Source: Squalus acanthias
Lineage: Eukaryota
Direction of reading: 5' to 3'
DNA: 64,000 nt
Assembly: GCA_030390025.1 (NCBI GenBank)
Contig: CM059446.1
Coordinates: forward strand, 5,952,001 to 6,016,000
The position numbers and the translations under genes were made by a program. Position 1 is the first letter of the stretch; every line of letters begins with the position of its first letter. Below are positions 11,791 to 63,067 of the stretch, in pieces. Under the pieces are notes generated by a model, which was given only the letters and a program-made list of their open reading frames with translations, did no database searches and was not told the DNA's origin.

Positions 11791-12398
11791 CTTGTTGAGC
11801 CCATTGTCTATCCTTTCCCTTTCCATGGTTGTTGCATTTTTATGCTGAATATGTTGCTTGGGTTCAGCACCATCAGCCTATCGTGTAAAGGAATCAAGTT
11901 GTTGTACTTGGATGTACCACGTATCGCCATGTAATCTAGACATTAGTAGCAGTGGAATAACACTCTATCAGACCATGACTCAAGCTATAAACCACTAGAC
12001 AAATTTGTTGGAACATGTAAAATGGATAGAAGAACAGTACTCAGTACAAATGGTATATTTACCGGAATTACAAATTACTAATCTGAAAAGGTTAAACTTC
12101 AAAGATGCATGTTTTTGCACCAACCCTCAACACAACACAGACCCTTGAAACACAAGACTTATTTCCTTGGTTATTTGCTCCCATGGAACCCTCTGACTTA
12201 AATTCATAACCCTGCTGCCTTCAGACTGCCGAGTGAGCCGAGTGCAGGCAGCCAAATATAAAGCTGCAACCTGCAGTGCTGTCTGTCAAAAAGAATTCAT
12301 GACCTTGCTGACAAATCTGATGTGCATCGGATATAGCTGTCAATCTAATGTTATTTTATAAAGATCCCCCAATATGTCTTCACCTATTGTTCGTCTCC

Positions 12399-12765
12399 AA
12401 ACCCTTCCGCCGTTCGGCGCCAAGCCCTTCCGCCATTCGACGCCAGACCCTTCCGCCGTTCGACGCCAAACCCTTCCACCATTTGACGCCCAACCCTTCC
12501 ACCGTTCGACGCCAAGCCCTTCCGCCGTTCGACGCCAAGCCCTTCCGCCCTTCCGCCGTTCGACGCCCAGCCCTTCCGCCGTTCGACGCCCAGCCCTTCC
12601 GCCCTTCCGCCGTTCGACGCCCAGCCCTTCCGCCGTTCGGCGCCCAGCCCTTCCGCCGTTCGGCGCCCAGCCCTTCCGCCGTTCGGCGCCCAGCCCTTCC
12701 GCCGTTCGGCGCCCAGCCCTTCCGCCGTTCGGCGCCCAGCCCTTCCGCCGTTCGGCGCCGAGCCC
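12399..12765. repeat. 23-bp GC-rich minisatellite, about 16 units (gcccttccgccgttcggcgccca)
   Basis: Tandem array visible directly; ORF translations repeat every 23 aa (three units). Confidence 0.95.
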
Positions 12766-13584
12766 TTTGAATAACCTGAGACGAGTCCCCATCCAATTAT
12801 AATGGCTGCAATCAAACCACGATTACCCCGGCCTTCCTGAACCATGCGTGTCTTGCTTTGACCTGAGCTGTGACTATCAGATGGACTGTAATGAATATTC
12901 TCTGCAGCTTGAAAAATCAGCTCAAATTACCTAACTTGATAACCCCGTGTGTGTGCTTGTGGCCAACAGAATAAAAATCCCCCAAATTCACCCATCATAC
13001 GCACAAATAATCCTTCATTTTTGTGTCACTTTTTCTTAAAGCCAGGCTTCTAACTTTAAAAAAAAAGTTTCCTTATCTGAACAATAGTATTGAGTCTTGC
13101 CATCCAAGCTTCTTTGCTTTATCACTGGGCCCTCAGAGGAACAATTATGGTTCAATAAAGAAATATTTTGTCCATTAATCCAGGTCAGTCTTTTCCCCCC
13201 CAAAATAGTGTGTTTCTGGTCCAATAAAGGAAGTGATTTGTTTCTCCCACACACCAGTACAAAGAAAGTGAGCTGGCTTTAAATGGCATTTCATCTTTTC
13301 ATCCCTCCATGCGGCACTCCACCAATCAACAGCTGCCAAGAGCGACACTACAGGAGAGCCACTTCACCACTGATCAGACTCTTCAAGGAGAACCTCTACT
13401 TTGTCAGACTGGGAGAAGTGGGTCGTGTATCGCTGAACGCTGCGCGTGTGTCTGGGGGAGGGGGGGTATCTGGGGGGGTGGGTATGTGGGGGTTTGTATA
13501 TCTGGGGCTTGCCTGGAAGCCATTGAAGACTGTGTGATCCGGTGCTTGTGTGCATCCTGCCAGTGTATTAAGGTGCTGTATTAT

Positions 13585-14521: not shown

Positions 14522-14748
14522 CTGGAAATCTGAAATAAAAACAGAAAATGCTGGAAATACTCAGCAGGTCAGGCAGCATCTGTGGAGAGAGAAACAGAGT
14601 TAACGTTTCAGGCGATGACCTTTCGTCAGAACTGCTGAAACGTTAACTCTGTTTCTCTCTCCACAGATGCTGCCTGACCTGCTGAGTGTCTCCAGCATTT
14701 TCTGTGTTTATTTCAGATTTCCAGCATCCGCAGTATTTTGCTTTTGTA
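14522..14748. mobile_element. Palindromic Penelope-type pLTR fragment (hammerhead family B)
   Basis: Inverted arms of about 90 bp (14522-14611 / 14635-14724) with a hammerhead at the centre on the - strand. Confidence 0.75.
14598..14633 (-). ncRNA. Minimal type I hammerhead ribozyme motif
   Basis: agtt-CTGACGA-a-agg/tcatcg/cct-GAA-ACGT-T-aact: catalytic core, stem I (agtt/aact), stem II, palindromic ACGT in place of stem III. Confidence 0.7.
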
Positions 14749-20339: not shown

Positions 20340-20653
20340 TTTTTTATTTTTTTTAAATTTTAATATTGAACAATTTATTTATGGTTAATGACATTACAGA
20401 GCCCAGGTCTCAGCTCTTTGTACAAAGTCACAAGCCATCATTCCCTCCAAGGCAGGGGTCCCACTCACAATTAAATAAACACGAGTACGAAACACAATAA
20501 ACTTGATCCCAGTAGTCACTTTAATCGCTCTCTCCCAGAGTGAGTTTGTCAAACGGGTAAATTTTCGGATGGCCCGTACAGGGATTAAAGCCGCGACCTT
20601 GGCGTTATTAGCACCACGCTCTCACCAACTGAGCTAACCGGCCACAAAGCGCC
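20340..20653 (-). mobile_element. tRNA-Ile-headed retroposed insertion (SINE or chimeric retrocopy) with A-rich tail and 15-bp TSD
   Basis: Direct repeat ttgattgccatggtt at 20325-20339 and 20654-20668; T-rich tract at the left end (poly-A on - strand); tRNA at the right end. Confidence 0.85.
20570..20643 (-). pseudogene. tRNA-Ile(AAU)-derived sequence, probably non-functional
   Basis: 74 nt GGCCGGTTAGCTCAGTTGGTGAGAGCGTGGTGCT-AAT-AACGCCAAGGTCGCGGCTTTAATCCCTGTACGGGCCA, matching vertebrate tRNA-Ile-AAT except for a damaged T-loop/B-box (GGCTTTAATCC instead of GGTTCGATCC). Confidence 0.88.
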
Positions 20654-29255: not shown

Positions 29256-30537
29256 GCAACAACAACAACTTGTATTTATATAGCGCCTTTAACGTAGTAA
29301 AACGTCCCAAGGTGCTTCACAGCAGTAATATGAGACAAAAAATTTGACAGAGCCACAAAAGGAGAAATTAGGGCAGGTGGGTCAAGGAGGTAGGTTTTAA
29401 GGAGCGTCTTAAAGGAGAAAAGAGAGGTGGAGAAGTTTAGGCAGGGAATTCCAGAGCTTAGGGCCCAGGCAACAGAAGGCACGGCCACCAATGGTTGAGC
29501 GATTATAATCAGGGATGCTCTGGAGGGCAGAATTAGAGGAGTGCAGATATCTCCGGGGTGGGAGGGGGCAGGGGAGGGTTGTGGTGCTGGAGATTCGAAA
29601 TAGGGAGGAGCGAAGCCATGTAGGGATTTGAAAACAAAGATGAGAATTTTGAAATAGAGGTGTTGCTTAACCGGGATCCAATGTCGGTCAGCGAGTACAG
29701 GGGAGATGGGTGAACGGGACTTGGTGCGAGTTAGACACGGGCGGCCGAGTTTTGGATGACCTCAAGTTTACGTAGGGTAGAACGTGGGAGGCCAGCCAGG
29801 AGTGCGTTGGAATAGTCAAGTCTAGAGGTAGCAAAGGGATGATTGATGAGGGTTTCAGCAGCGGATAAGCTGAGGTAAGGGTGGAGACCGGCGATGTTAC
29901 GGAGGTGGAAATAGGCGGTCTTTGTTATGCCGCAGATATGTGGTCGGAAGCTCATTTCAGGGTCAAATATGACACCAAGGTTGCGAACAGTGTGGTTCAG
30001 CCTCAGACAGATGTTAGGGAGAGGGATGGAGTCAGTGGCTAGGGAACGGAGTTTGTGGCGGGGACCGAAAACAATGGCTTCGGTCTTCCCAATATTTAAT
30101 TGGAGAAAATTTCTGCTCATCCAGAACTGTATGTCGGACAAGCAGTCTGACAATTTAGAGATCGTGGAGGGGTCGAGAGAAGAGGTAGTGAGGTAGAGCT
30201 GGGTGTCGTCAGCGTACATGTGGAAACTGACGCTGTGTTTTCGGATGATGTCGCCAAGGGGCAACATGTAGATGAGAAATAGGAGGGGGCCAAGGATAGA
30301 TCCTTGGGGGACACCAGAGGTAACGATGCGGGAGCGGGAAGAGAAGCCGTTGCAGGTGATTCTCTGGCTACGATTAGATAGATAAGAATGGAACCAGGCG
30401 AGTGCAGTCTCACCCAGCTGGACGACGGTGGAGAGGCGTTGGAGAAGGATAGAGTGGTCAAACATGTCAAAGGCTGCAGACAAGTCAAGAAAGGCGAGGA
30501 GGGATAGTTTACCTTTGTCACAGTCACAAAGGATGTC
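29256..30537 (-). mobile_element. L2-type LINE, 5'-truncated, with reverse transcriptase remnant
   Basis: ORF 29731-30483: LSAAFD, GVPQGSILGPLLF, YADDTQLY, LNIGKTE, SRLDYSNALL; (caa)n tail at the left end. Confidence 0.95.
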
Positions 30538-32204
30538 ACTGGAGTGTCAGCCTAGATTTTGTGCTCAAGTCCCAGGCATGGGACTTGGAACCCACAACCT
30601 TCTGACTCAGCTGAGAGTGCTACCATTGAGCTGACCCCTGTTGTGCCATGGGATCTCTTATGTCCACCTCAACAGACAGATGGGGGCTCAGTTTCATGCC
30701 TCATCTGAAAGGTGGCATCTCTGACAATGCAGCAATTTCTCCTCTCTGCACTGAACTGCCAGCCTAAATTATGTACTCGTATTCTGCCGACTGGGCTCGC
30801 AGTCTTCCAACTCCGAGGCAAAGGAGAAAGCCAGAGAATAATAAATGTTGTGACCCTTCTCAAGTCACGTCAAATAACCGTGCACTCTGATTCCTTGGAC
30901 ACCAGATGCAACTTTGGTTCTGAATGATGTGTGTCCAAAATACAGTGCCCGGGTGATGCAAATGAAAGGTTAAAGGCCCATGCAGCTGAAGACAATTCAG
31001 TTCTCTCTGCCGTGCACTGTTGCTCTTTATTGTATTTGACTTTGTAAGTCTTACAGCTGGGTACTGTAACTGATTCATTCCACAGTGGGAAAAGGTTAAC
31101 TGCAGCTTCTGTTTTATTGTGCCTTTAAAACTCTGGAAATTGCCTGATGTGATATTAATATTTGAACACTATATGTATTTGTGTCGAATTCTTTGTCTGC
31201 CATTTAAACGGAGGCGTTAACACGTTTAAAGCAAATGCCTCTGTTAAAATAACACGAGGGAGGGATTTGATGCCGACATGTTAGCTGTTCCTACGTTATT
31301 ACCAGACTCATCGTTTCCACGGCCAAAAATTTTTCCATAATTCCTCGAGCAGTGTTTATCCAACAAACACAAAAATTAGCATAAAAACAAGAGCTTCGGA
31401 GAGTGGGCGCTCTTCACAAAAGGGTTTATCCGTTTCCAAAGTAGCTGCTTCCTGCACGATGAAATCAGAGGATCAGAGAAATTTACGGCACAGAAGGAGG
31501 CCATTCGGCTCACTGCGTCAGTGCCGGCCAAAAAAAGAGCCATCCAGCCGAAATCTCTTCTTTTTTCAAAATCTATTTAAAGGCCAGAAGGGTGCGTGCA
31601 GCTACCGAAACCACTTCAGTTCACTCTCGAATTGCAGGTATCCTTACAGCAACATTTCAGTCAGGGTCCTTTAGCAGTACAAATTACCCGGGGGATTCAG
31701 AACCTGCCAATGCTTTTTTTTTTCCTCCGTTTTATTTGATGCGTTTGTTTTACATTCGGATCGATTGAAGTGATGTGTGTCCTGTCACCACCGCTCTTAT
31801 GCAGCGTGACGGGCACGCTTCATGTTCTGCATCCCCTGAGCACTAGTAACTTCTCGCCGGGCATTTGGTTTCCCCGTCGTTGAGTGCCACATGTAGTGGA
31901 AACAGCTTACACCGCTCCTGCGATTCTTGTGTAGCCACGATCAGGGACAAGCAGCCCAATTGCGTTGGGAGTGTCTTTGAACCGGGGAATATTGAGGCAA
32001 TTACTGTGAATGAGAGGACTCTCCCAGCCTGCTTTGCTCCTTAATTACACAAATTAGGGTTGTATTCCCTGGAAATTAGAAGGTTAAGGGGCGATCTGAT
32101 TGAAGTTTTCAGCATATTAAGGGGAACAGATAGGGTAGATGGAGAGAAACTATTTCCGCTGGTTGGGGAGTCTAGGACTAGGGGGCATAGTCTTAAAAAT
32201 TAGA

Positions 32205-32452
32205 TACCTTCTAATGTGGTACCTTCCTGGCTGACCTGATTAACTTTATCACACCTCGGCAGATAGTCAGGATGATTTAATTTAGTTGTCTGCAATTGTA
32301 AGGTACACATGCTTTGTTCTCTATCTATATATGCTTTGGCGATTCTGTATCTATTTACTTCACCTGAGGAAGGGGCAATCGATAGCTCCGAAAGCTTGTG
32401 ATTTCAAATAAAACTGTTGGACTATAACCTGGTGTTGTGCGACCTCTCAATT
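32205..32452 (+). mobile_element. Penelope-type pLTR fragment (hammerhead family A) with 12-bp TSD
   Basis: Flanked by ttaaaaattaga (32193-32204 and 32453-32464); its 3' part is homologous to the pLTR of the GIY-YIG element at 60670-60755. Confidence 0.85.
32360..32401 (+). ncRNA. Minimal type I hammerhead ribozyme motif
   Basis: tcac-CTGAGGA-a-ggggc/aatcgata/gctcc-GAA-AGCT-T-gtga. Confidence 0.72.
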
Positions 32453-32857
32453 TTAAAAATTAGAGCCAGACCTTTCAGGAGTGAAATTAGGAAACACTTC
32501 TACACACAAAGGCTGGTAGAAGTTTGGAACTCTCTTCCGCAAATGGCAATTGATGCTAGATCAATTAATTTTGAATCTGAGATTGATAGATTTTTGTTAA
32601 CCAAAGGTATTAAGGGATATGGGGCAAAGGCGGGTATATGGAGTTAGGTCACAGATCAGCCATGATCTCACTGAATGCGGAACAGGCTCGAGGGGCTGAA
32701 GGGCCTCCTCCTGTTCCGATGTTAGTACCAGACGGTATTGATTATAAGTTGTTGGTGGCATCAAAGATTTCTGAATCTATTGTTGAGAAGGTAAATTTAC
32801 CAGTCTGCCCTCTGTTGCCACAATTTCAGACACATTTCTTTGATTCTGGCAAAATAC

Positions 32858-38603: not shown

Positions 38604-38879
38604 GTACGATTCCGATGTCCTTCAATATTCTGTATGGGAGCTTATTCGAGTGCCAATGCGCAGTGCCCTGGAGTGGTGGGAGGTAGACATGATTCCCTCC
38701 CCCACCCCACTGGCTGAGTTCCTGATCGGGGTCATATTGATAGAAGGAGCGAACACGTGGAGTCTGGGCAACTCCCTGCAGTGGAAGAGATAATTCAATA
38801 GGGAATTTTTAGAGCTTCAGAGTACCAAAAATCACCAACCACTTATGTAGCAGATTCAACTTAGTGAAAGTCTGAGCAC

Positions 38880-39450
38880 CTAGGAACATAGGAATGGGAG
38901 GAGGCCATTTAGCCCCTCGAGCCTGTTCCGCCATTCAATGAGATCATGGCTGATCTGTGACCTAACTCCATACACCCGCCTTTGTCCCATATCCCTTAAT
39001 ACCTTTGGTTAACAGAAATCTATCAATCTCAGATTTAAAATTAACAATTGACCCAGCATCAATTGCCATTTTCGGAAGAGAGTTCCAAACTTCTAGCACC
39101 CTTTGTGTGTAGAAGTCTTTATCTTTATCTTTACTCCTGAAAGGCCTGGCTCTAATTTTTAGGTTGCACAACACCAGGTTATAGTCCAACAGTTTTATTT
39201 GAAATCACAAGCTTTCGGAGTTACTACTCCTTCGTCGGGTGAAGTGAAACGATACAGAATCGCCAAAGCATATATAGATAGAGAACAATGCATGTGTACC
39301 TTACAATTTTTAGGCCATGTTTCCTAGTCCTAGACTCTCCAACCAGTGGAAATAGTTTCTCTCTATCTACCCTATCTGTTCCCCTTAATATCTTGAAAAC
39401 TTTGATCAAATCACCCCTTAACCTTCTAAATTCCAGGGAATACAACCCTC
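38880..39450 (-). mobile_element. CR1 3' fragment interrupted by a PLE/hammerhead insert
   Basis: Same CR1 subfamily as 32030-32722 and 47495-48248. Confidence 0.88.
39164..39304 (-). mobile_element. Penelope-type pLTR fragment (hammerhead family A) with 10-bp flanking direct repeat
   Basis: Flanked by aatttttagg (39154-39163 and 39305-39314); homologous to about 32299-32442; hammerhead at 39205-39242 with core variant CCGACGA. Confidence 0.85.
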
Positions 39451-39459
39451 ATAAAGGGG

Positions 39460-39926: not shown

Positions 39927-40172
39927 AAAGAAGAAACAGGCATTGAACAGCAAGTGACTGAAGAAGTAGCTGAAGAGAGAGGTTCAGTAGAGGCTGTAAA
40001 GATGTGGTAAATTGCAGAGAATTAGGGAGAGGATTCCAGAGAGTGAGAGTGATGGCTGTTTCATCGATTCAGGGAAGGGAGGGATACGCAGGCAGCCAAC
40101 ATCTAGTGTGGGAAAATCCATAGAATATGGTAAATCGCTAATAGCATACAAGGAAACTCGATAGAAAAGTTA

Positions 40173-40280
40173 TAAAATAAAAACAGAAAATGCTGGAAAT
40201 GCTCAGCAGGCCAGGCAGCATCTGTGGAGAGAGATACAGAGTTAACGTTTCAGGCCGATGACCCTTCGTCAGAACTGGAA
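40173..40280 (-). mobile_element. Penelope-type pLTR fragment, family B, with hammerhead at 40240-40276
   Basis: agtt-CTGACGA-a-gggtc/atc/ggcct-GAAACGTT-aact; same family as 14522-14748. Confidence 0.75.
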
Positions 40281-40569
40281 CAGGAAAAGTTGCCCACAAA
40301 CTAATCAGAATTGTTTAATTTGAGTGGGTTTGCCTTTTTTGCGACAGCAAGGGTTGGCAGGCGATTTTGCTTGTGAGCTTTACCAATGTTGGCGTATTAA
40401 TCAGAGGTAGTGACAAATGACCTAGCAGTTACTGACATTTATTATTCATTTACTTAAAATTTAATTAGCAAACATTAATGGCTTCTGTCACCAGAGACAC
40501 AAGATTCATTTGACTCCATGCATTTGAAATGTTCATTAATAATGGCTAAATTTGTCCTCTGATTTCTTG

Positions 40570-47335: not shown

Positions 47336-47494
47336 TAAAGTCTGGTATCTGTCTGCTGTCATGGTTCAGGGCAAAGTTAACCTTAAGTAGCGTTCAAAGG
47401 AGAGTAGGGAGTTTCTCATTGTCTGGACCAACATTACCTCCTCAACAAGCACCACCAAAAGTGGATTAGCTGACCATTCATCTCTTAACTGTGG

Positions 47495-48248
47495 CAAATT
47501 GATTTCAGTGTAGACAAATGTGCGGTCATCCACTTTGGACCTAAAAAGGATAGAACAGGGTACTTTCTAAATGGTAAAAAGCTAAAAACAGTGGAGGTCC
47601 AAAGAGACTCAGGGGTCCAGGTACATCGATCATTAAAATGTCATGAACAGGTACAGAAAATAATCAAAAAGGCTAATGGAATGCTGGCCTTTATATTGAG
47701 AGGACTAGAATACAAGGGGTAGAAGTTATGCTTCAGCTGTACAAAGCCCTGGTTAGACCACACCTGGAGCACTGTGAGCAGTTCTGGGCACCACACCTTA
47801 GGAAGGATATATTGGCCTTGGAGGGAGTGCAGCGTAGGTTTACCAGAATGATACCCAGAGCTCCAAGGGTTAAATTACGAGGAGAGATTACACAAACTAG
47901 GGTTGTATTCCTTAGAATTTAGAAGGTTAAGAGGTGATCTGATTGAAGTTTTCAAGATATTAAGGGGAACAGATAGGGTAGATGGAGAGAAACTATTTCC
48001 TCTGGTTGGGGAGTCTAGGACTAGGGGGCAGAGTCTAAAAATTAGAGCCAGACCTTTCAGGAGTGAAATTCGGAAACACTTCTACACACAAAGGGTGGTA
48101 GAAGTTTGGAACTGTCTTCCAGAAACGGCAATTGATGCTCGATCAATTGTTAATTTTAAATCTGGGATTGATGGAATGGCGGAGCAGGCTCGAGGGGCTC
48201 AATGGCCTCCTCCTGTTCCTGTGTTCCTTTGTCCTATGTTCCTATGTT
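47495..48248 (+). mobile_element. CR1 3' fragment carrying the empty site for the PLE inserts
   Basis: ORFs 47728-47922 and 47903-48250; uninterrupted gtctaaaaattagagccagacc at about 48033-48054. Confidence 0.92.
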
Positions 48249-49180
48249 AACTGTTTGTGTGGTCTTGCTGGGGTGCAAAATGGCTACTGTGTTTGCTTAC
48301 ATAACAACAGTCATTGCGCTTCGATGTAATTTATTGAATGTGAAATAAGTGGTCATTTCTGAGATGTGATGGGTTCCTATGTAAATGTAAGGCGTTTTTT
48401 GTTTATCTTGTAAATTTAAAATAGCGGAGTATTAAGGGATAAAGATGGTTTTTACTCGTGTTTGTAATGCATGTTGGGGCATTTGTTTGAAATTCGTCTT
48501 GAGCTTTTTAAATACACGTTTAAACTCAGAGTTATTGCATTAAAGTAACTTGTTTGTTAAAGATATCATTAAGATTAATTTCACCCCATAAATTCAGCGT
48601 AAATTCTTCAGACCTGTGAAATTCCTGGGGAGGACACGAGTGCGAGCTTTACGCCGATGATAGAAAGAGGAATCTTGGTTATTTAATGTGCTGGACCCAC
48701 GCTGCAATGCCACTTGGTTTAAAGCAAACCTTCCTGAGGTGTTTGTTAATATCCTCATTACAGCCCTGATTTTTTTGTATACAGCCTTGCTCAGCAGTGC
48801 ATTAATCCCTTTAATTAAATATTTAAAGATAATTAGAGCGAATAGTAAAGATAAAGTGCTCGTGTAGCAATGAAGCTCAGTCAGCCATGTCCTTCAAATG
48901 TTACGCTAATGGGATAGAAGGTCTGTTTTATATAAGTCTATGCAAGATTAAAATTCAACCCATGCGCTTTTGGTCAGAATAAGTAATTACTAAAATGCTA
49001 AATGTGCAACACCGACGCTACTCTGTTGAAATACAGAATAATAGGTTTTAGTGCAAACTGTTCAGAGATATTTGGCAGCAGCTTCTTTGCTTTTTGTGCT
49101 CCGCCATGTTGCATGTTGCTTGTTATATTATAGTTAGGTACGTTCTCTGTGTCAGAGTCTTGTGGCTTCAATTGCTGTTA

Positions 49181-54812: not shown

Positions 54813-55586
54813 GGGGGTCCCTGGGAGTGTGTCAGTATTTACAGGGGGTCCCCGGGAGTGTGTCAGTATTTACAGGGGGTCCCCGGGAGTGTGTCAGTAT
54901 TTACAGGGGGTCCCCGGGAGTGTGTCAGTATTTACAGGGGGTCCCCGGGAGTGTGTCAGTATTTACAGGGGGTCCCTGGGAGTGTGTCAGTATTTACACG
55001 GGATCCCCGGGAGTGTGTCAGTATTTACAGGGGGTCCCCGGGAGTGTGTCAGTATTTACAGGGGGTCCCCGGGAGTGTGTCAGTATTTACAGGGGGTCCC
55101 CGGGAGTGTGTCAGTATTTACAGGGGTTCCCCGGGAGGGTGTCAGTATTTACAGGGGATCCCCGGGAGTGTGCCAGTATTTACAGGGGATCCCCGGGAGT
55201 GTGCCAGTATTTACAGGGGGTCCCCGGGAGTGTGTCAGTATTTACAGGGGTCCCGGGGAGAGTGTGTCAGTATTTACAGGTGGTCCCCAGGAGTGTGTCA
55301 GTATTTACAGGGGGTTCCCCGGGGAGTGTGTCAGTATTTACAGGGGGTCCCCGGGAGTGTGTCAGTATTTACAGGGGGTCCCCGGGAGTGTGTCAGTATT
55401 TACAGGGGGTCCCCGGGAGTGTGTCAGTATTTACAGGGGGTCCCCGGGAGTGTGTCAGTATTTACAGGGGGTCCCCGGGAGTGTGTCAGTATTTACAGGG
55501 GTTCCCCGGGAGTGTGTCAGTATTTACAGGGGGGTCCCTGGGAGTGTGTCAGTATTTACAGGGGTTCCCGGGAGTGTGTCAATACT
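54813..55586. repeat. 31-bp minisatellite, about 25 units (gggagtgtgtcagtatttacagggggtcccc)
   Basis: Tandem array visible directly; ORF translations repeat every 31 aa. Confidence 0.97.
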
Positions 55587-55726
55587 TGGGGAGAGGATGA
55601 CCCCATACAGAAACATTTAAAACCTCAAACAGTTGGGGAAAGTTTGCTGTGACGATATTTTCTGTGGGGAAAAAAATAATTGTAATGCGTGACCTGATAT
55701 GAGGGAACAACTAGTTACAGGAACAA

Positions 55727-56020
55727 CAACAGAAAATGCTGGAAATACTCAGCAGGTCAGGCAGCATCGTGGAGAGAGAAACAGAGTTAACGTTTCAGGT
55801 CTGTGACCCTTCGTCAGAACTGGAAAAGGTTAGAGATGTAACAGATTTTTAAGCAAGTGCAGGGGCGGGGAGAGGGGGGAGGAAAGAACAAAAGGGAAGG
55901 TCTGTGATAGGATGGAAGGCAGGAGAGATTAAATGACAAAAGGGATGATGGTGCAAGGCAAAAGGAATTGGTAATGGGACAAGTTAAGAAACAAAAATGA
56001 CTCTAGATGAAGTGTAAATG
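55727..56020 (-). mobile_element. Penelope-type pLTR fragment, family B, with hammerhead at 55785-55821
   Basis: agtt-CTGACGA-a-gggtc/aca/gacct-GAAACGTT-aact with longer upstream pLTR sequence. Confidence 0.72.
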
Positions 56021-58886: not shown

Positions 58887-59892
58887 TTGGTGTTGTGCGC
58901 CAAGCTCTTAAGTGTCAAATCTACTGATCAGTTACAAAGTTGGACCAAGCAAAAAGGAATCATAGAATGTCACAGCACAGAAGGAGGCCATTCGGCCCGT
59001 CGTGCCTGTGCCGGCTCTTTGACAGAGCTGTCCGATTAATCCCATTTCCCTGCACTTTTCCCATAGCCCTGAACATTTTTGGTTTTCAAGTATTTATTCA
59101 ATTCCCTTTTGAAAGTTATTTCAAAAAAAAAGGAGGATCTTGAAGGAGGAGAGGGAGTTGGAGAGGCGGAAGGAATTGGCAAGAATGCGGCCTGAGTGGC
59201 TGAAGGCATGGCCACTAATGGTGGGACGAAGAGAGCGAGGGATGCACAAGAGACTGGAGGGAAAAGTGCGGAGATTTATGGGGGGGCGGGTGATGAGTTG
59301 TAAAGCTGGAAGAAGTTACGGAACCAAGGAGGGAATGAAGCCATGTAAGAATTTAAAATTGGGGCGTTGAGAGGACCAGATGCCAATGTAGGTCAGTGAG
59401 GACAGGCAAGATGGACGAGTGTTTCTTGGTACGGGATATGACACGAGCAGCAATAATCAGGGTGATCTGAAGTTTATGGAGGGTGGACAATGGGAGGCCA
59501 GCCAGGACAGCATTGGAGTAATAGAGTCTGGTGGTGATCAATGCATAGATGAAGGTTTCAGCAGCAAATAGACTGTGGTAGGGGCAGAGATGGATGTATG
59601 AAGAAGGTTTGAGGTTGGAAGCTTAATTGGGGTCTGACAGGATGCTGAGGTTGTGAACAGCTTGGAACAGTGGCCAGATAGAGGGATGGAACCGATGACC
59701 AGTGTACAGAGTTTGTGGAGGGGACGGAAGACAGTAGCTTCGGTCTTCCCAACTTTCAGCTGGAGAAAGTTGCAGCTCATCCAAGACTAGTTGTTGGAGA
59801 AGCAGTCTGACAGCACAGAAGCAGTGGAGATGCCAAGAGAGATGGCGGAGAGGTAGAACTGGGTGTCATTGGTGTATGTGTAGATAATGTTG

Positions 59893-60755
59893 ATGATGTG
59901 GAGATGCCGGCGTTGGACTGGGGTGGACAAAAATGAGAAGTCGCACAACACCAGGTTATAGTCCAACAGATTTATTTAAAATTACAAGCTTTCGGAGCTG
60001 TTGCCCCTTCCTCAGGTACAGTTACTGTGAGACAATCTACCAGAATTCACAGAATATAAACACAGAGAAAATGCATTCAATCTTTCCCTACATCAAAGAC
60101 ACACTAAGAGTACAGCCAAGACAATGAGATGTGTCCCAGGGGGTCCAACGTGTCAAAACACCTGCTGGCTGCATATCCTCTCCATTTGGGTTTGTTTCTT
60201 GTGTTTGTTTTTTTAAAAAGCTGGAAAGACCGGCAACGATGTCAAGTCACGTTCTGTAACGTGACATGAACCCGATATCCCGATTGAGGCCATCCTCATG
60301 AGTGCGGAACTTGGCTATCAGTTTCTGCTCGATGATTTTGCGTTGTCGTGTATCCTGAAGGCCGCCTTGGAGAACGCTAACCCGCAGATCCGAGGCTGAA
60401 TGCCCTTGACTGCTGAAGTGTTCCCCGACTGGGAGGCAACCCTCCTGCCTGGCGATTGTTGTGCGGTTTCCGTTCATACGTTGTCTCAGTGTCTGCATGG
60501 TCTCGCCGATGTACCATGCTCTGTGGCATCCTTTACTGCAACGTATCCCTGGGACACATCTCATTGTCTTGGCTGTACTCTTAGTGTGTCTTTGATGTAG
60601 GGAAAGATTGAATGCATTTTCTCTGTTTATATTCTGTGAATTCTGGTAGATTGTCTCACAGTAACTGTACCTGAGGAAGGGGCGACAGCTTCGAAAGCTT
60701 GTAATTTTAAATAAATCTGTTGGACTATAACCTGGTGTTGTGCGACTTCTCATTT
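59893..60755 (-). mobile_element. Penelope-like retroelement, 5'-truncated, GIY-YIG endonuclease C-terminus, inverted pLTRs, 12-bp TSD
   Basis: ORF 60247-60771 contains RCSKGCHRAWYIGETMQTLRQRMN...VGEHF...EQKLIAKFRTHEDGLNRD. Inverted arms 59930-60141 / 60547-60756. Direct repeat tagataatgttg at 59881-59892 and 60756-60767. Confidence 0.92.
60668..60703 (+). ncRNA. Minimal type I hammerhead ribozyme motif (mirror copy on - strand at 59983-60018)
   Basis: tac-CTGAGGA-a-ggggc/gaca/gcttc-GAA-AGCT-T-gta. Confidence 0.7.
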
Positions 60756-62519
60756 TAGATAATGTTGCCAAGGGGGCAGCATGTAAATGAGGAAGAGGAA
60801 AGGGGGAGGGGGAATAGATTCTTGGGGAGCTCCATAGGAATGCCAGAAGAACATCCCAAGAGCAATATTCAAGTATTAGATGTATTTGGTCTTCATGAAG
60901 TGTTGGGACTTGTTGAGGGAGACATGTAATGGAGATCAGTAATTCTATTTGACATCAGAGGAGATCATGACGGATGTAAATGTGGCCCGAGACCCAGTAT
61001 CAGAGGTGGCCTGGGCCTCACGATTCAGGCACAGGGATTGCTCCATGCTCCTCACGCCCCTCCAAAAGTGGGCACACTCAAACCTCGAGGCCACCATCTT
61101 TGTATCACTGTGGGCTTTCAATACAGTGCCTCCTGCCTCTTCCCTTCCACCACTCATTGCACCCTGGAGTGAAGAGCAAACAGAGGTTTGGAGCTCATGA
61201 GACACCAGTGCCCACTGCAAGGAGTTGAGCTTGTTTCCGAGTAAGTCAGAGACTGTCAGATTTTGCCTTTTCTCAAACTGAGAAGGTGCGAATTCCCCGC
61301 TCCACCTGAAATGTTCCATTTTGACAAAGAATTGATGAACTCATCATTGTGTGCGACAGGTCAGTTGGACTGAGACACAGCCTGGGGCCCCCAGGATGCC
61401 AATCGGAGCATCGAGAGCCTTCACCGGGTCACTGAAAAGGCGAATCATTTGTTTATGTTGAAGGGTTTGTTACTGGGATGAAGAGGGACTTATCCAGAGA
61501 GAGCAGCAACATATTTTAAACCCTGCTTTGACTTGCCCTGCCTGCCTGTATTTTGCGCTCGCTTTCAATTGTCGAATCGGCATTTTAAAAGAAAATGCAG
61601 TTGCACTTCAATTATAAGTAGAATAAGAGAATAGTAAAAAGCTTAATGTGCCCTTTGACATTTTCAAACAAATTGCCTGCCAGTGCGGATTACTTATGCT
61701 GACATATTTATGCTTCAGTAATTAAAATATGACGGTGCTATTTGACATTTTCCACGAGTGAATACAGGTTGTGTTTTATTTTGTCTTTTTTTTAAAGTAA
61801 TACTGACTTTCTAGAAAAATAATTGACGCCTTTGGTAGTCATTTTTAAATTAGTCCAGCACATTTCTTGCTCTGTGTTTTGGAACACCTGCATCCACTGT
61901 GGATTAACAGTAAATTAAGAGGAACATCACGGCAGAGCACGGAATTCCTGCGAGAAGAGAAAGGAAATGAAGTTTCTCGCTCGCATTTCCTCCGAAACCT
62001 ATTGCGTTTTTCGAGGAGCTGTCTTCTATGGCTTTGCACATCGCACTGAGGTTTGGGGCTAATCATGGTCCCTGCCGTAAGTCACAATGGTAAGCAAATT
62101 GCGAGCTGCCTCACTGCAAGGTGCCATCAAAATTCTCATTTAAATTTCAAATCTTGGGCATTAAGCGCCAAATAATTTGGATGATGGCTTCGTTTCACGC
62201 CTATGCAAACCTGAATAAGTGCCACACTTGACAAAATCGAATGCTCTTCCAAATATCCACGGGCAACACGCTGCTTCCCAGTACCACGGACTAACGGGGA
62301 TGTAATTCCGAGCCTTCCCTTTCCCACTTTAAAATAACGGATCAAATGCATTTTTCTTCCCTCTTCTCAAGCTGAGCTGGGATTAGATTGAACTGGTTGT
62401 CTCCTGGTGCTGCACGATTGGCTGAGATTGCTTCCAGCTCCTCCTCCTTCCCCCATTTGTCAGGGCGGTGATTGACTTTTGTGCGCAATCTCTAAATTGT
62501 CGACCCTATAGCTTGTGTT

Positions 62520-62880: not shown

Positions 62881-62955
62881 CTCGTTGAGGAAGGATCAAT
62901 TTTACATTAAAAAGAATGAGTGTCCTCCAACTGTTCTCGGCAAAACTTTGAAAAT

Positions 62956-63067
62956 CAAATAAAAACAGAAAATGCTGGAAATACTCAGTGGGCCAGGCAG
63001 CATCTGTGGAGAGAGAGAAAGTTAAAAACATTTTCTGTGTTTTATTTCAGATTTCCAGTTGCTTTTG
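62956..63067. mobile_element. Collapsed palindromic pLTR fragment, family B (hammerhead deleted)
   Basis: Left and right arm remnants like 14522-14748, with the centre missing. Confidence 0.65.

What the first reader, a model, noticed from the sequence alone, without database searches (positions are those of the whole stretch)
32193..32464. Hammerhead-bearing Penelope fragments occupy the same site in two copies of one CR1 subfamily: possible site-targeted parasite of a LINE
Seen: three copies of one CR1 subfamily span the sequence ...TAAAAATTAGAGCCAG. The copy at about 48035 is empty. The copy at 32 kb carries a 248-bp insert flanked by ttaaaaattaga. The copy at 39 kb (- strand) carries a homologous 141-bp insert flanked by cctaaaaatt. 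Both inserts have the same orientation relative to CR1. They differ in 5' length, junctions, flanking-repeat length and hammerhead stem II. Established: PLE pLTRs carry minimal hammerheads, and GIY-YIG nucleases favour AT-rich targets. Inference: either independent insertions targeted to this CR1 motif, or a composite CR1-hammerhead subfamily that retrotransposed and later lost part of the insert. Two hits at one site within 64 kb would be unexpected for random insertion.
Basis: partly seen in the sequence, partly recalled or inferred. Interest (0 to 1): 0.8.

Follow-up and report, generated by a model that had tools for sequence, protein, structure and literature searches.

The report
Penelope retroelement reads symmetric DNA target
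Two separate copies of a very abundant jumping gene landed at the same spot in two copies of another repeat, likely because its cutting enzyme reads a short mirror-symmetric DNA sequence that these two copies match better than their empty relatives, and not because it seeks out that repeat.

Summary
Both inserts are 5'-truncated ends of one abundant Penelope-like family (101,308 end-motif matches) with a minimal hammerhead; the 32 kb insert is 100% identical over 240 nt to a full-length copy elsewhere. They are independent insertions, not a composite. About 39 copies of this CR1 site are occupied genome-wide, in both orientations (19 vs 17), with different junctions and scattered hosts. That is about 0.1% of insertions; other CR1 sites take 14-15 times more, and satellite, SINE and other DNA are also hit. 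Targets share a symmetric motif, CnMTGnY-[12-bp duplication]-RnCAKnG, recoverable from non-CR1 sites alone. A one-base CR1 variant that completes it is in 18 of 34 occupied copies but 96 of about 7,350 empty ones (odds ratio 85; the motif predicts about 100). Both occupied window copies are better-matching variants (14.2 and 9.4 bits); the empty one scores 2.1. So the preference is for a sequence, not for CR1. A residual excess of up to about 1.7-fold in LINEs is not excluded. I found no paper describing the motif, but this scan noted it before (e1-8152903, same genome; e1-9380332, another genome).

The parts
32044..32723 (+). CR1-type LINE 3' fragment (end of ORF2 and 3' end), host of insert 1
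   Evidence: self-BLAST; alignment; mask
32193..32204 (+). 5' copy of the 12-bp target-site duplication TTAAAAATTAGA; this host has one extra T that puts a G at motif position -2 (site score 9.4 bits, top 0.03% of background positions)
32205..32452 (+). Insert 1: 7 extra nt, then the 3' part of the pLTR of a Penelope-like element ending at the short (tail-less) end; 100% identical over 240 nt to the pLTR of full-length copy L158
32360..32401 (+). Minimal type I hammerhead motif: 4-bp stem I, CUGAGGA core, unpaired A, 5-bp stem II, GAAA, palindromic AGCU in place of stem III
   Evidence: pattern and stem-II fold; place; no Rfam hit
32453..32464 (+). 3' copy of the 12-bp duplication
38875..39452 (-). 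CR1-type 3' fragment, host of insert 2; carries the rare TGGC left arm (site score 14.2 bits)
39305..39314 (-). 5' copy of the duplication, cut short; its last 4 nt (AATT) are shared with the element
39164..39304 (-). Insert 2: shorter pLTR end of a different subfamily (97% to copies at unrelated sites)
39205..39242 (-). Minimal hammerhead motif with core CCGACGA (U4 to C, a trait shared by many copies) and a different stem II
39151..39162 (-). 3' copy of the duplication in the 12-bp register (CTAAAAATTAGA)
48035..48046 (+). Empty site in the third CR1 copy (about 47487-48250); poor left arm, 2.1 bits
59881..60767 (.). Third insertion of the same Penelope-like family, inverted (tail end left, short end right), 12-bp duplication TAGATAATGTTG, at an unrelated site (6.4 bits)

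Best explanation
The two inserts are independent insertions of an abundant hammerhead-bearing Penelope-like retroelement whose targets share a mirror-symmetric motif around a 12-bp duplication, and they likely chose these two CR1 copies because the element's GIY-YIG nuclease reads that motif and these copies match it better than their empty relatives. Shown: independence, 12-bp modal duplication, symmetric motif (C at -6, C/A at -4, T at -3, G at -2 left of the duplication, mirror image on the right), both orientations, 1-3 nt matches between the element end and the start of the duplication, and an 85-fold effect of one base in the CR1 site. Inferred: a two-fold symmetric (likely dimeric) RT-nuclease nicks both strands 12 nt apart, leaving 3' overhangs. 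An overhang anneals by 1-3 nt to the pLTR RNA inside a roughly 10-nt window (short end) or near the ORF start codon (tail end) and primes reverse transcription. Early termination and microhomology joining give stubs like these two; priming from both overhangs would give inverted copies like the one at 60 kb. CR1 hot spots arise because thousands of near-identical CR1 copies carry good matches. Two hits 7 kb apart is a coincidence on top of that preference.
For: Motif from non-CR1 sites is symmetric without being forced (28 sites). Leave-one-out median 8.6 bits, top 0.06% of background (26 sites). It ranks most CR1, satellite and SINE hot spots at 11-19 bits. TGG left arm: 18 of 34 occupied vs 96 of 7,348 empty, OR 85, p=1e-24; strict set 9 of 12, OR 227; matrix difference 11.5 vs 4.8 bits, about 100-fold. 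A second CR1 site scoring 14.5 bits has 262 one-orientation junctions vs 3,537 empties (about 7%), like the TGG variant here (9 vs 96). Duplication length mode 12: 23 of 71. Microhomology mean 1.8 vs 0.6 nt permuted, p=0.0002, n=52; same in 35 de-duplicated sites. 29 of 30 two-ended copies have one short and one tail end. PMC11167929 reports that a purified PLE protein cleaves and extends both strands, starts at two internal RNA sites and is predicted to be a dimer.
Against: Targets fall in my LINE mask more often than the motif predicts: 29 of 72 (40%) vs 22% of background and 23% motif-weighted (bootstrap 12-38%), and 13 of 17 vs 41% at the tip of C1, where the motif-weighted share was 27%. 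The matrix rests on 26-28 sites from one chromosome. 3 of 26 training sites score below zero on leave-one-out. 16 of 34 occupied copies of this site lack the TGG arm. Six occupied hosts including the 39 kb one group weakly with one empty copy (support 95/77), so part of the TGG effect may be an older CR1 sub-lineage. PMC11167929 found initiation without homology to the cut DNA and only an ATT preference for its own element. No biochemistry here.
Confidence: 0.8

Rival explanations
1. The element has evolved to home to LINE/CR1 copies as safe havens, either by a motif tuned to conserved CR1 ORF2 sequence or by extra recognition (chromatin, CR1 transcription, CR1 proteins).
For: Targets in the LINE mask 1.9-fold above background in both samples (p=0.0005 and 0.005), only partly explained by the motif. 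Several recurrent sites lie in CR1 ORF2.
Against: 47 of 89 targets are outside the mask. The motif is fully recoverable from non-CR1 sites. The common form of this CR1 site is almost never used (about 0.2% of exact sites in one orientation). High-scoring empty sites are not concentrated in the mask (24-33% at all thresholds). Selection against insertions in unique DNA would give a similar excess (inference).
Confidence: 0.12
2. A composite CR1 carrying the insert retrotransposed, or one local copy converted the other, with later loss of part of the insert.
For: Two occupied copies 7 kb apart, inverted, both CR1 fragments starting within about 10 bp of each other; the chance of such a pair for this site alone is 0.3-1% within 7 kb.
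Against: Both junctions differ. The inserts belong to different subfamilies, each closer to copies elsewhere (100% and 97%) than to each other. Hosts are about 88% alike and not sisters; occupied hosts need 16 changes on the tree and are one group in 0 of 200 bootstrap trees. Opposite-orientation insertions exist.
Confidence: 0.03
3. Generic AT-rich preference plus chance.
For: Duplications average 67% A/T; papers report AT-rich or ATT preference (PMC11167929, PMC3846280).
Against: About 70-fold above an AT-only expectation. The information lies in G/C-containing flanks. An A-to-G change raises use 85-fold. A GC-rich duplication (ACCTCCCCTGTG) is a recurrent target.
Confidence: 0.05

Closest known systems
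PAc, Poseidon element of Anolis carolinensis (PMC11167929; parts 1-2 of 4 of the text read)
   Same: RT plus C-terminal GIY-YIG ORF, hammerhead at the pLTR-ORF boundary, two internal reverse-transcription start sites that give short and tail ends, both strands cut, dimer predicted.
   Different: PAc was reported to prefer ATT in AT-rich DNA and to start without homology. Here there is a symmetric G/C-containing motif, a modal 12-bp duplication and 1-3 nt microhomology. This element also has a CX4CX2C linker that Penelope/Poseidon lack (PMC8557442 passages).
Neptune/Nematis-type EN+ Penelope-like elements (PMC8557442, passages; PMC3846280, passages)
   Same: CX2-5CxxC linker, CCHH motif, partial-tandem and inverted layout, tail on one inverted pLTR, duplications of 8-10 bp in the rotifer examples.
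   Different: In the passages seen, the described preferences are microsatellites, rDNA or AT-rich DNA; no symmetric non-repeat motif was seen there. Clade not tested by a tree.
Minimal hammerheads of metazoan PLEs (PMC4209133; parts 1-2 of 4 read)
   Same: Short stem I, unpaired base before stem II, G10.1-C11.1, palindromic 15.2-16.2, high stem-II variability within one genome.
   Different: The 39 kb subfamily has U4 to C in the core, not mentioned in the parts read. Activity untested.
Palindromic target-site model of DNA transposons such as the P element (PMC2577343, search listing only)
   Same: A symmetric target motif with fixed duplication length and no orientation bias.
   Different: That is a cut-and-paste transposase; here it is a target-primed retroelement.

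Membership tests
EN+ Penelope-like element | Single ORF with RT and C-terminal GIY-YIG nuclease | tested here: met
   L158 ORF from ATG with RVT_1 at E=2e-9 and VVY...YIG motif; intact C-terminus in L146. No Pfam GIY-YIG hit; L158 changes frame near its end.
EN+ Penelope-like element | pLTR with optional 3' tail; tandem and inverted layouts | tested here: met
   (29 of 30 two-ended copies are short plus tail)
EN+ Penelope-like element | [quoted passage not shown] | tested here: met
   cysteine pair between VVY and YIG and two downstream histidines in L146; definition from PMC8557442 passages
Neptune clade | CX2-5CxxC linker between RT and nuclease | tested here: met
   CX4CX2C in L146 and L158; shared with Nematis
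Neptune clade | RT phylogeny with Neptune references | not tested
   no reference sequences fetched
Minimal PLE hammerhead | Core boxes, stems I and II, palindromic 15.2-16.2 | tested here: met
   39 kb copy has U4 to C; Rfam gives no hammerhead hit
Minimal PLE hammerhead | Self-cleavage | not testable with these tools
   needs an in vitro assay
Site-specific retroelement targeting one repeat | Most copies at one site of one host repeat | tested here: not met
   11 of 8,375 young short ends here; 0 of first 100; the largest site class is about 15 of those 100 (read by eye)
Site-specific retroelement targeting one repeat | Fixed orientation to the host | tested here: not met
   19 vs 17
Composite CR1-PLE subfamily | Shared junctions and a single host clade | tested here: not met
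   (short alignment, mostly open branches; formal one-clade test not run)

The most novel reading that the evidence does not exclude
This Penelope-like family uses a homing-endonuclease-like, two-fold symmetric recognition of about 26 bp with a fixed 12-nt stagger, and the motif has been tuned by selection so that its best matches lie in CR1 ORF2 and other abundant repeats, making it a sequence-guided hyperparasite of LINEs.
Probability: 0.13. Interest if true: 0.75.

Novelty: new variant of a known kind. Interest (0 to 1): 0.45.

Why it matters
How Penelope-like elements choose and cut their target is largely open; the one in vitro study read here reports only an ATT preference. This genome gives a defined symmetric motif, a predicted cut geometry (12-nt 3' overhangs) and a ready matched substrate pair differing by one base with an 85-fold difference in natural use, plus near-intact young elements. 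That makes the dimer and double-priming model directly testable and bears on using these proteins as gene-writing tools. It also warns that repeated insertions at one site of a LINE need not mean the LINE is targeted. The two stubs themselves are ordinary, and the motif was already noted by this scan.

Tried and rejected
Rfam scan: no hammerhead family hit in the window; minimal PLE hammerheads had to be matched by pattern. An early idea of a CTAW-NNN-WTAG palindrome inside the duplication (note 1) was dropped: the information lies in the flanks. The PLE library held a piece of CR1, which hid some duplications and inflated the PLE mask; fixed, and the main counts come from then on (the 29 of 30 two-ended count uses the table). 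My CR1 mask is over-inclusive (it also covers other LINE- and SINE-like repeats); it was applied alike to targets and background. Two of 91 fetched young-family loci (L257, L274) fell out as duplicates by key; both look like CR1 hot-spot sites. Public runs laid on both inserts (4 of 24 runs, contigs only) were uninformative: contigs break in the repeats and the skips seen can come from other empty CR1 copies, so polymorphism is untested. No dimer prediction was obtained. Local enrichment of this CR1 site near the window is not evident: outside the window, 2 looser matches in 200 kb. Literature searches for a symmetric PLE target or PLE-in-CR1 targeting gave nothing on point; passages of PMC12602865, PMC9977147 and bioRxiv 10.64898/2026.07.22.740005 had none. 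Repbase entries, subscription papers and supplements were not seen and may describe it.

Full report
Observation. The three CR1-type copies and both inserts are as described. Insert 1 is 248 bp between two copies of TTAAAAATTAGA; insert 2 is 141 bp; the 48 kb copy is empty. The window lies on contig C23 of a 3.7-Gb genome. Its repeats look like those of cartilaginous fishes; that label is recalled, not tested.

What the inserts are. Insert 1 is 100% identical over 240 nt to the 3' pLTR of a full-length element at L158. That element has an ORF starting at the end of the pLTR tail, an RT domain, a VVY...YIG nuclease and a CX4CX2C linker, which by passages of PMC8557442 marks Neptune or Nematis rather than Penelope/Poseidon. 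Both inserts carry a minimal hammerhead matching the features listed in PMC4209133; Rfam does not detect it. Insert 2 is a different subfamily, 97% like copies at unrelated sites. A 21-nt motif near the element end has 101,308 exact matches; inverted copies count twice.

Composite or independent. The element end joined to this CR1 site occurs 19 times in the same orientation, the two window copies included. Of 19 hits of the mirror search, 17 are this site in the opposite orientation. Tail-end searches gave 2 and 7 hits, of which 3 are new places, so about 39 exact-match copies are occupied, a lower bound. Their lengths and 5' junctions differ, and 29 readable inserts of 36 show 20 stem-II variants. 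On a tree of host right flanks (58 of 61 rows kept, 199 columns, mostly open branches) occupied copies need 16 changes (shuffled mean 19.7; 31 of 500 shuffles as low), are one group in 0 of 200 bootstrap trees, and the two window hosts are not sisters. The insertions are independent.

Is this site targeted. It is enriched: 11 of 8,375 young-family short ends against 0.008 (uniform, one register) or 0.15 (AT-rich 12-mers only) expected. But it is minor. None of the 16 closest relatives of insert 1 and none of the first 100 listed young ends is there. Two other CR1 sites have 262 and 285 one-orientation junctions. Read by eye, the 100 listed ends include about 15 at one CR1 site class and 7 in a tandem repeat; two SINE-like sites appear.

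The target motif. I fetched 91 of the first 100 young-family places; 89 remained after de-duplication, and 71 gave a duplication, with mode 12 bp (23 of 71; 13 at 13). From 28 sites outside the LINE mask, the unsymmetrised profile shows C-6, C/A-4, T-3 (0.88), G-2 (0.92) on the left and the mirror image (C 0.82, A 0.65) on the right. After removing two misfiled sites, 26 sites give a leave-one-out median of 8.6 bits, reached by 0.06% of 456 kb of background. An earlier, partly overlapping set with older subfamilies gave the same motif in 39 distinct target classes. Most CR1, satellite and SINE hot spots score 11-19 bits under a matrix trained without the CR1 and satellite sites.

A natural one-base experiment. 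The common CR1 site has TAG in the left arm (4.8 bits); the TGG variant scores 11.5 or more. TGG is in 96 of about 7,350 empty exact sites and 0 of the first 30, but in 18 of 34 occupied copies with a readable left arm (10 of 17 and 8 of 17 by orientation; 2 unreadable): OR 85, p=1e-24; with matched definitions 9 of 12, OR 227. The matrix predicts about 100. Several TGG-occupied hosts sit among TAG empties in the main group of the tree, but six occupied hosts around the 39 kb copy group weakly, so sub-lineage age may add to the effect. In the window, the 39 kb host is a TGGC variant (14.2 bits), the 32 kb host has an extra T that restores G-2 (9.4 bits; the pre-insertion state is inferred from the junctions), and the empty copy scores 2.1.

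Mechanism. With the duplication fixed at 12 bp, the element end matches the first bases of the duplication by 1.8 nt on average against 0.6 when targets are permuted (n=52, p=0.0002), and the end position shifts with the target. Of 30 two-ended copies, 29 have one short and one tail end, the layout described in PMC3846280 (passages). I infer a symmetric, likely dimeric nuclease making nicks 12 nt apart, with either or both 3' overhangs priming on the pLTR RNA. PMC11167929 supports two-strand cutting, two start sites and a predicted dimer for another PLE, but reports no homology at the start site and only an ATT preference. Nothing here is biochemical.

What remains unexplained. Targets lie in my LINE mask about 1.9 times more often than background (29 of 72 vs 22%; 13 of 17 vs 41%), while the motif-weighted background share is 23% with a wide interval (12-38%). 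Small samples, loss of the best sites from the empty pool, selection against insertions in unique DNA, or real LINE preference could each explain this. Two occupied copies in one window has an expectation of 0.013-0.055 for this site alone, but same-site pairs are expected repeatedly at larger hot spots.

Prior knowledge. Seven literature searches found no description of a symmetric PLE target or of PLE hot spots in CR1; Repbase, subscription papers and supplements were not seen. Earlier notes of this scan reported the same idea (e1-8152903 in this genome, e1-9380332 in another). I had a lead on hot spots before reading them, and the motif analysis came after. New here are the non-CR1-trained test, the one-base effect and the microhomology test.

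Verdict. Real, explained, and not a CR1-specific parasite: a known kind of element with a target preference that seems undescribed in print. Interest 0.45.

Noticed in passing
window 59881-60767: Inverted insertion of the same Penelope-like family with a 12-bp duplication, tail on one side only, in an older repeat that also matches 29678-30207.
   Followed up: partly
window 14523-14723, 40172-40284, 55722-55829, 62949-63016: A second family of short elements, one of them a fold-back, with a hammerhead-like core and a different stem II; probably another Penelope-like family. It causes the weak Rfam mir-14 hits.
   Followed up: no
L158:4578-7854 (G000:C1 near 2.36 Mb): Full-length young element with an 848-aa open frame and a frame change near the nuclease C-terminus, inserted in a CR1 copy.
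   Followed up: partly
G000 genome-wide; e.g. L102, L120, L118, L107: At least four stronger CR1 ORF2 hot spots; one has about 7% of exact sites occupied in one orientation.
   Followed up: partly
L106, L121, L123, L128: A tandem repeat is a recurrent target (7 of the first 100 young ends, read by eye).
   Followed up: partly
loci with core CCGACGA, e.g. L036, L038, L236: A whole subfamily carries U4 to C in the hammerhead core yet has spread, which suggests that cleavage is dispensable or tolerant.
   Followed up: no
window 20570-20643 (-): tRNA-like sequence, Rfam 47.5 bits.
   Followed up: no
window 54813-55587 and 12389-12767: Tandem repeat arrays (self-BLAST).
   Followed up: no
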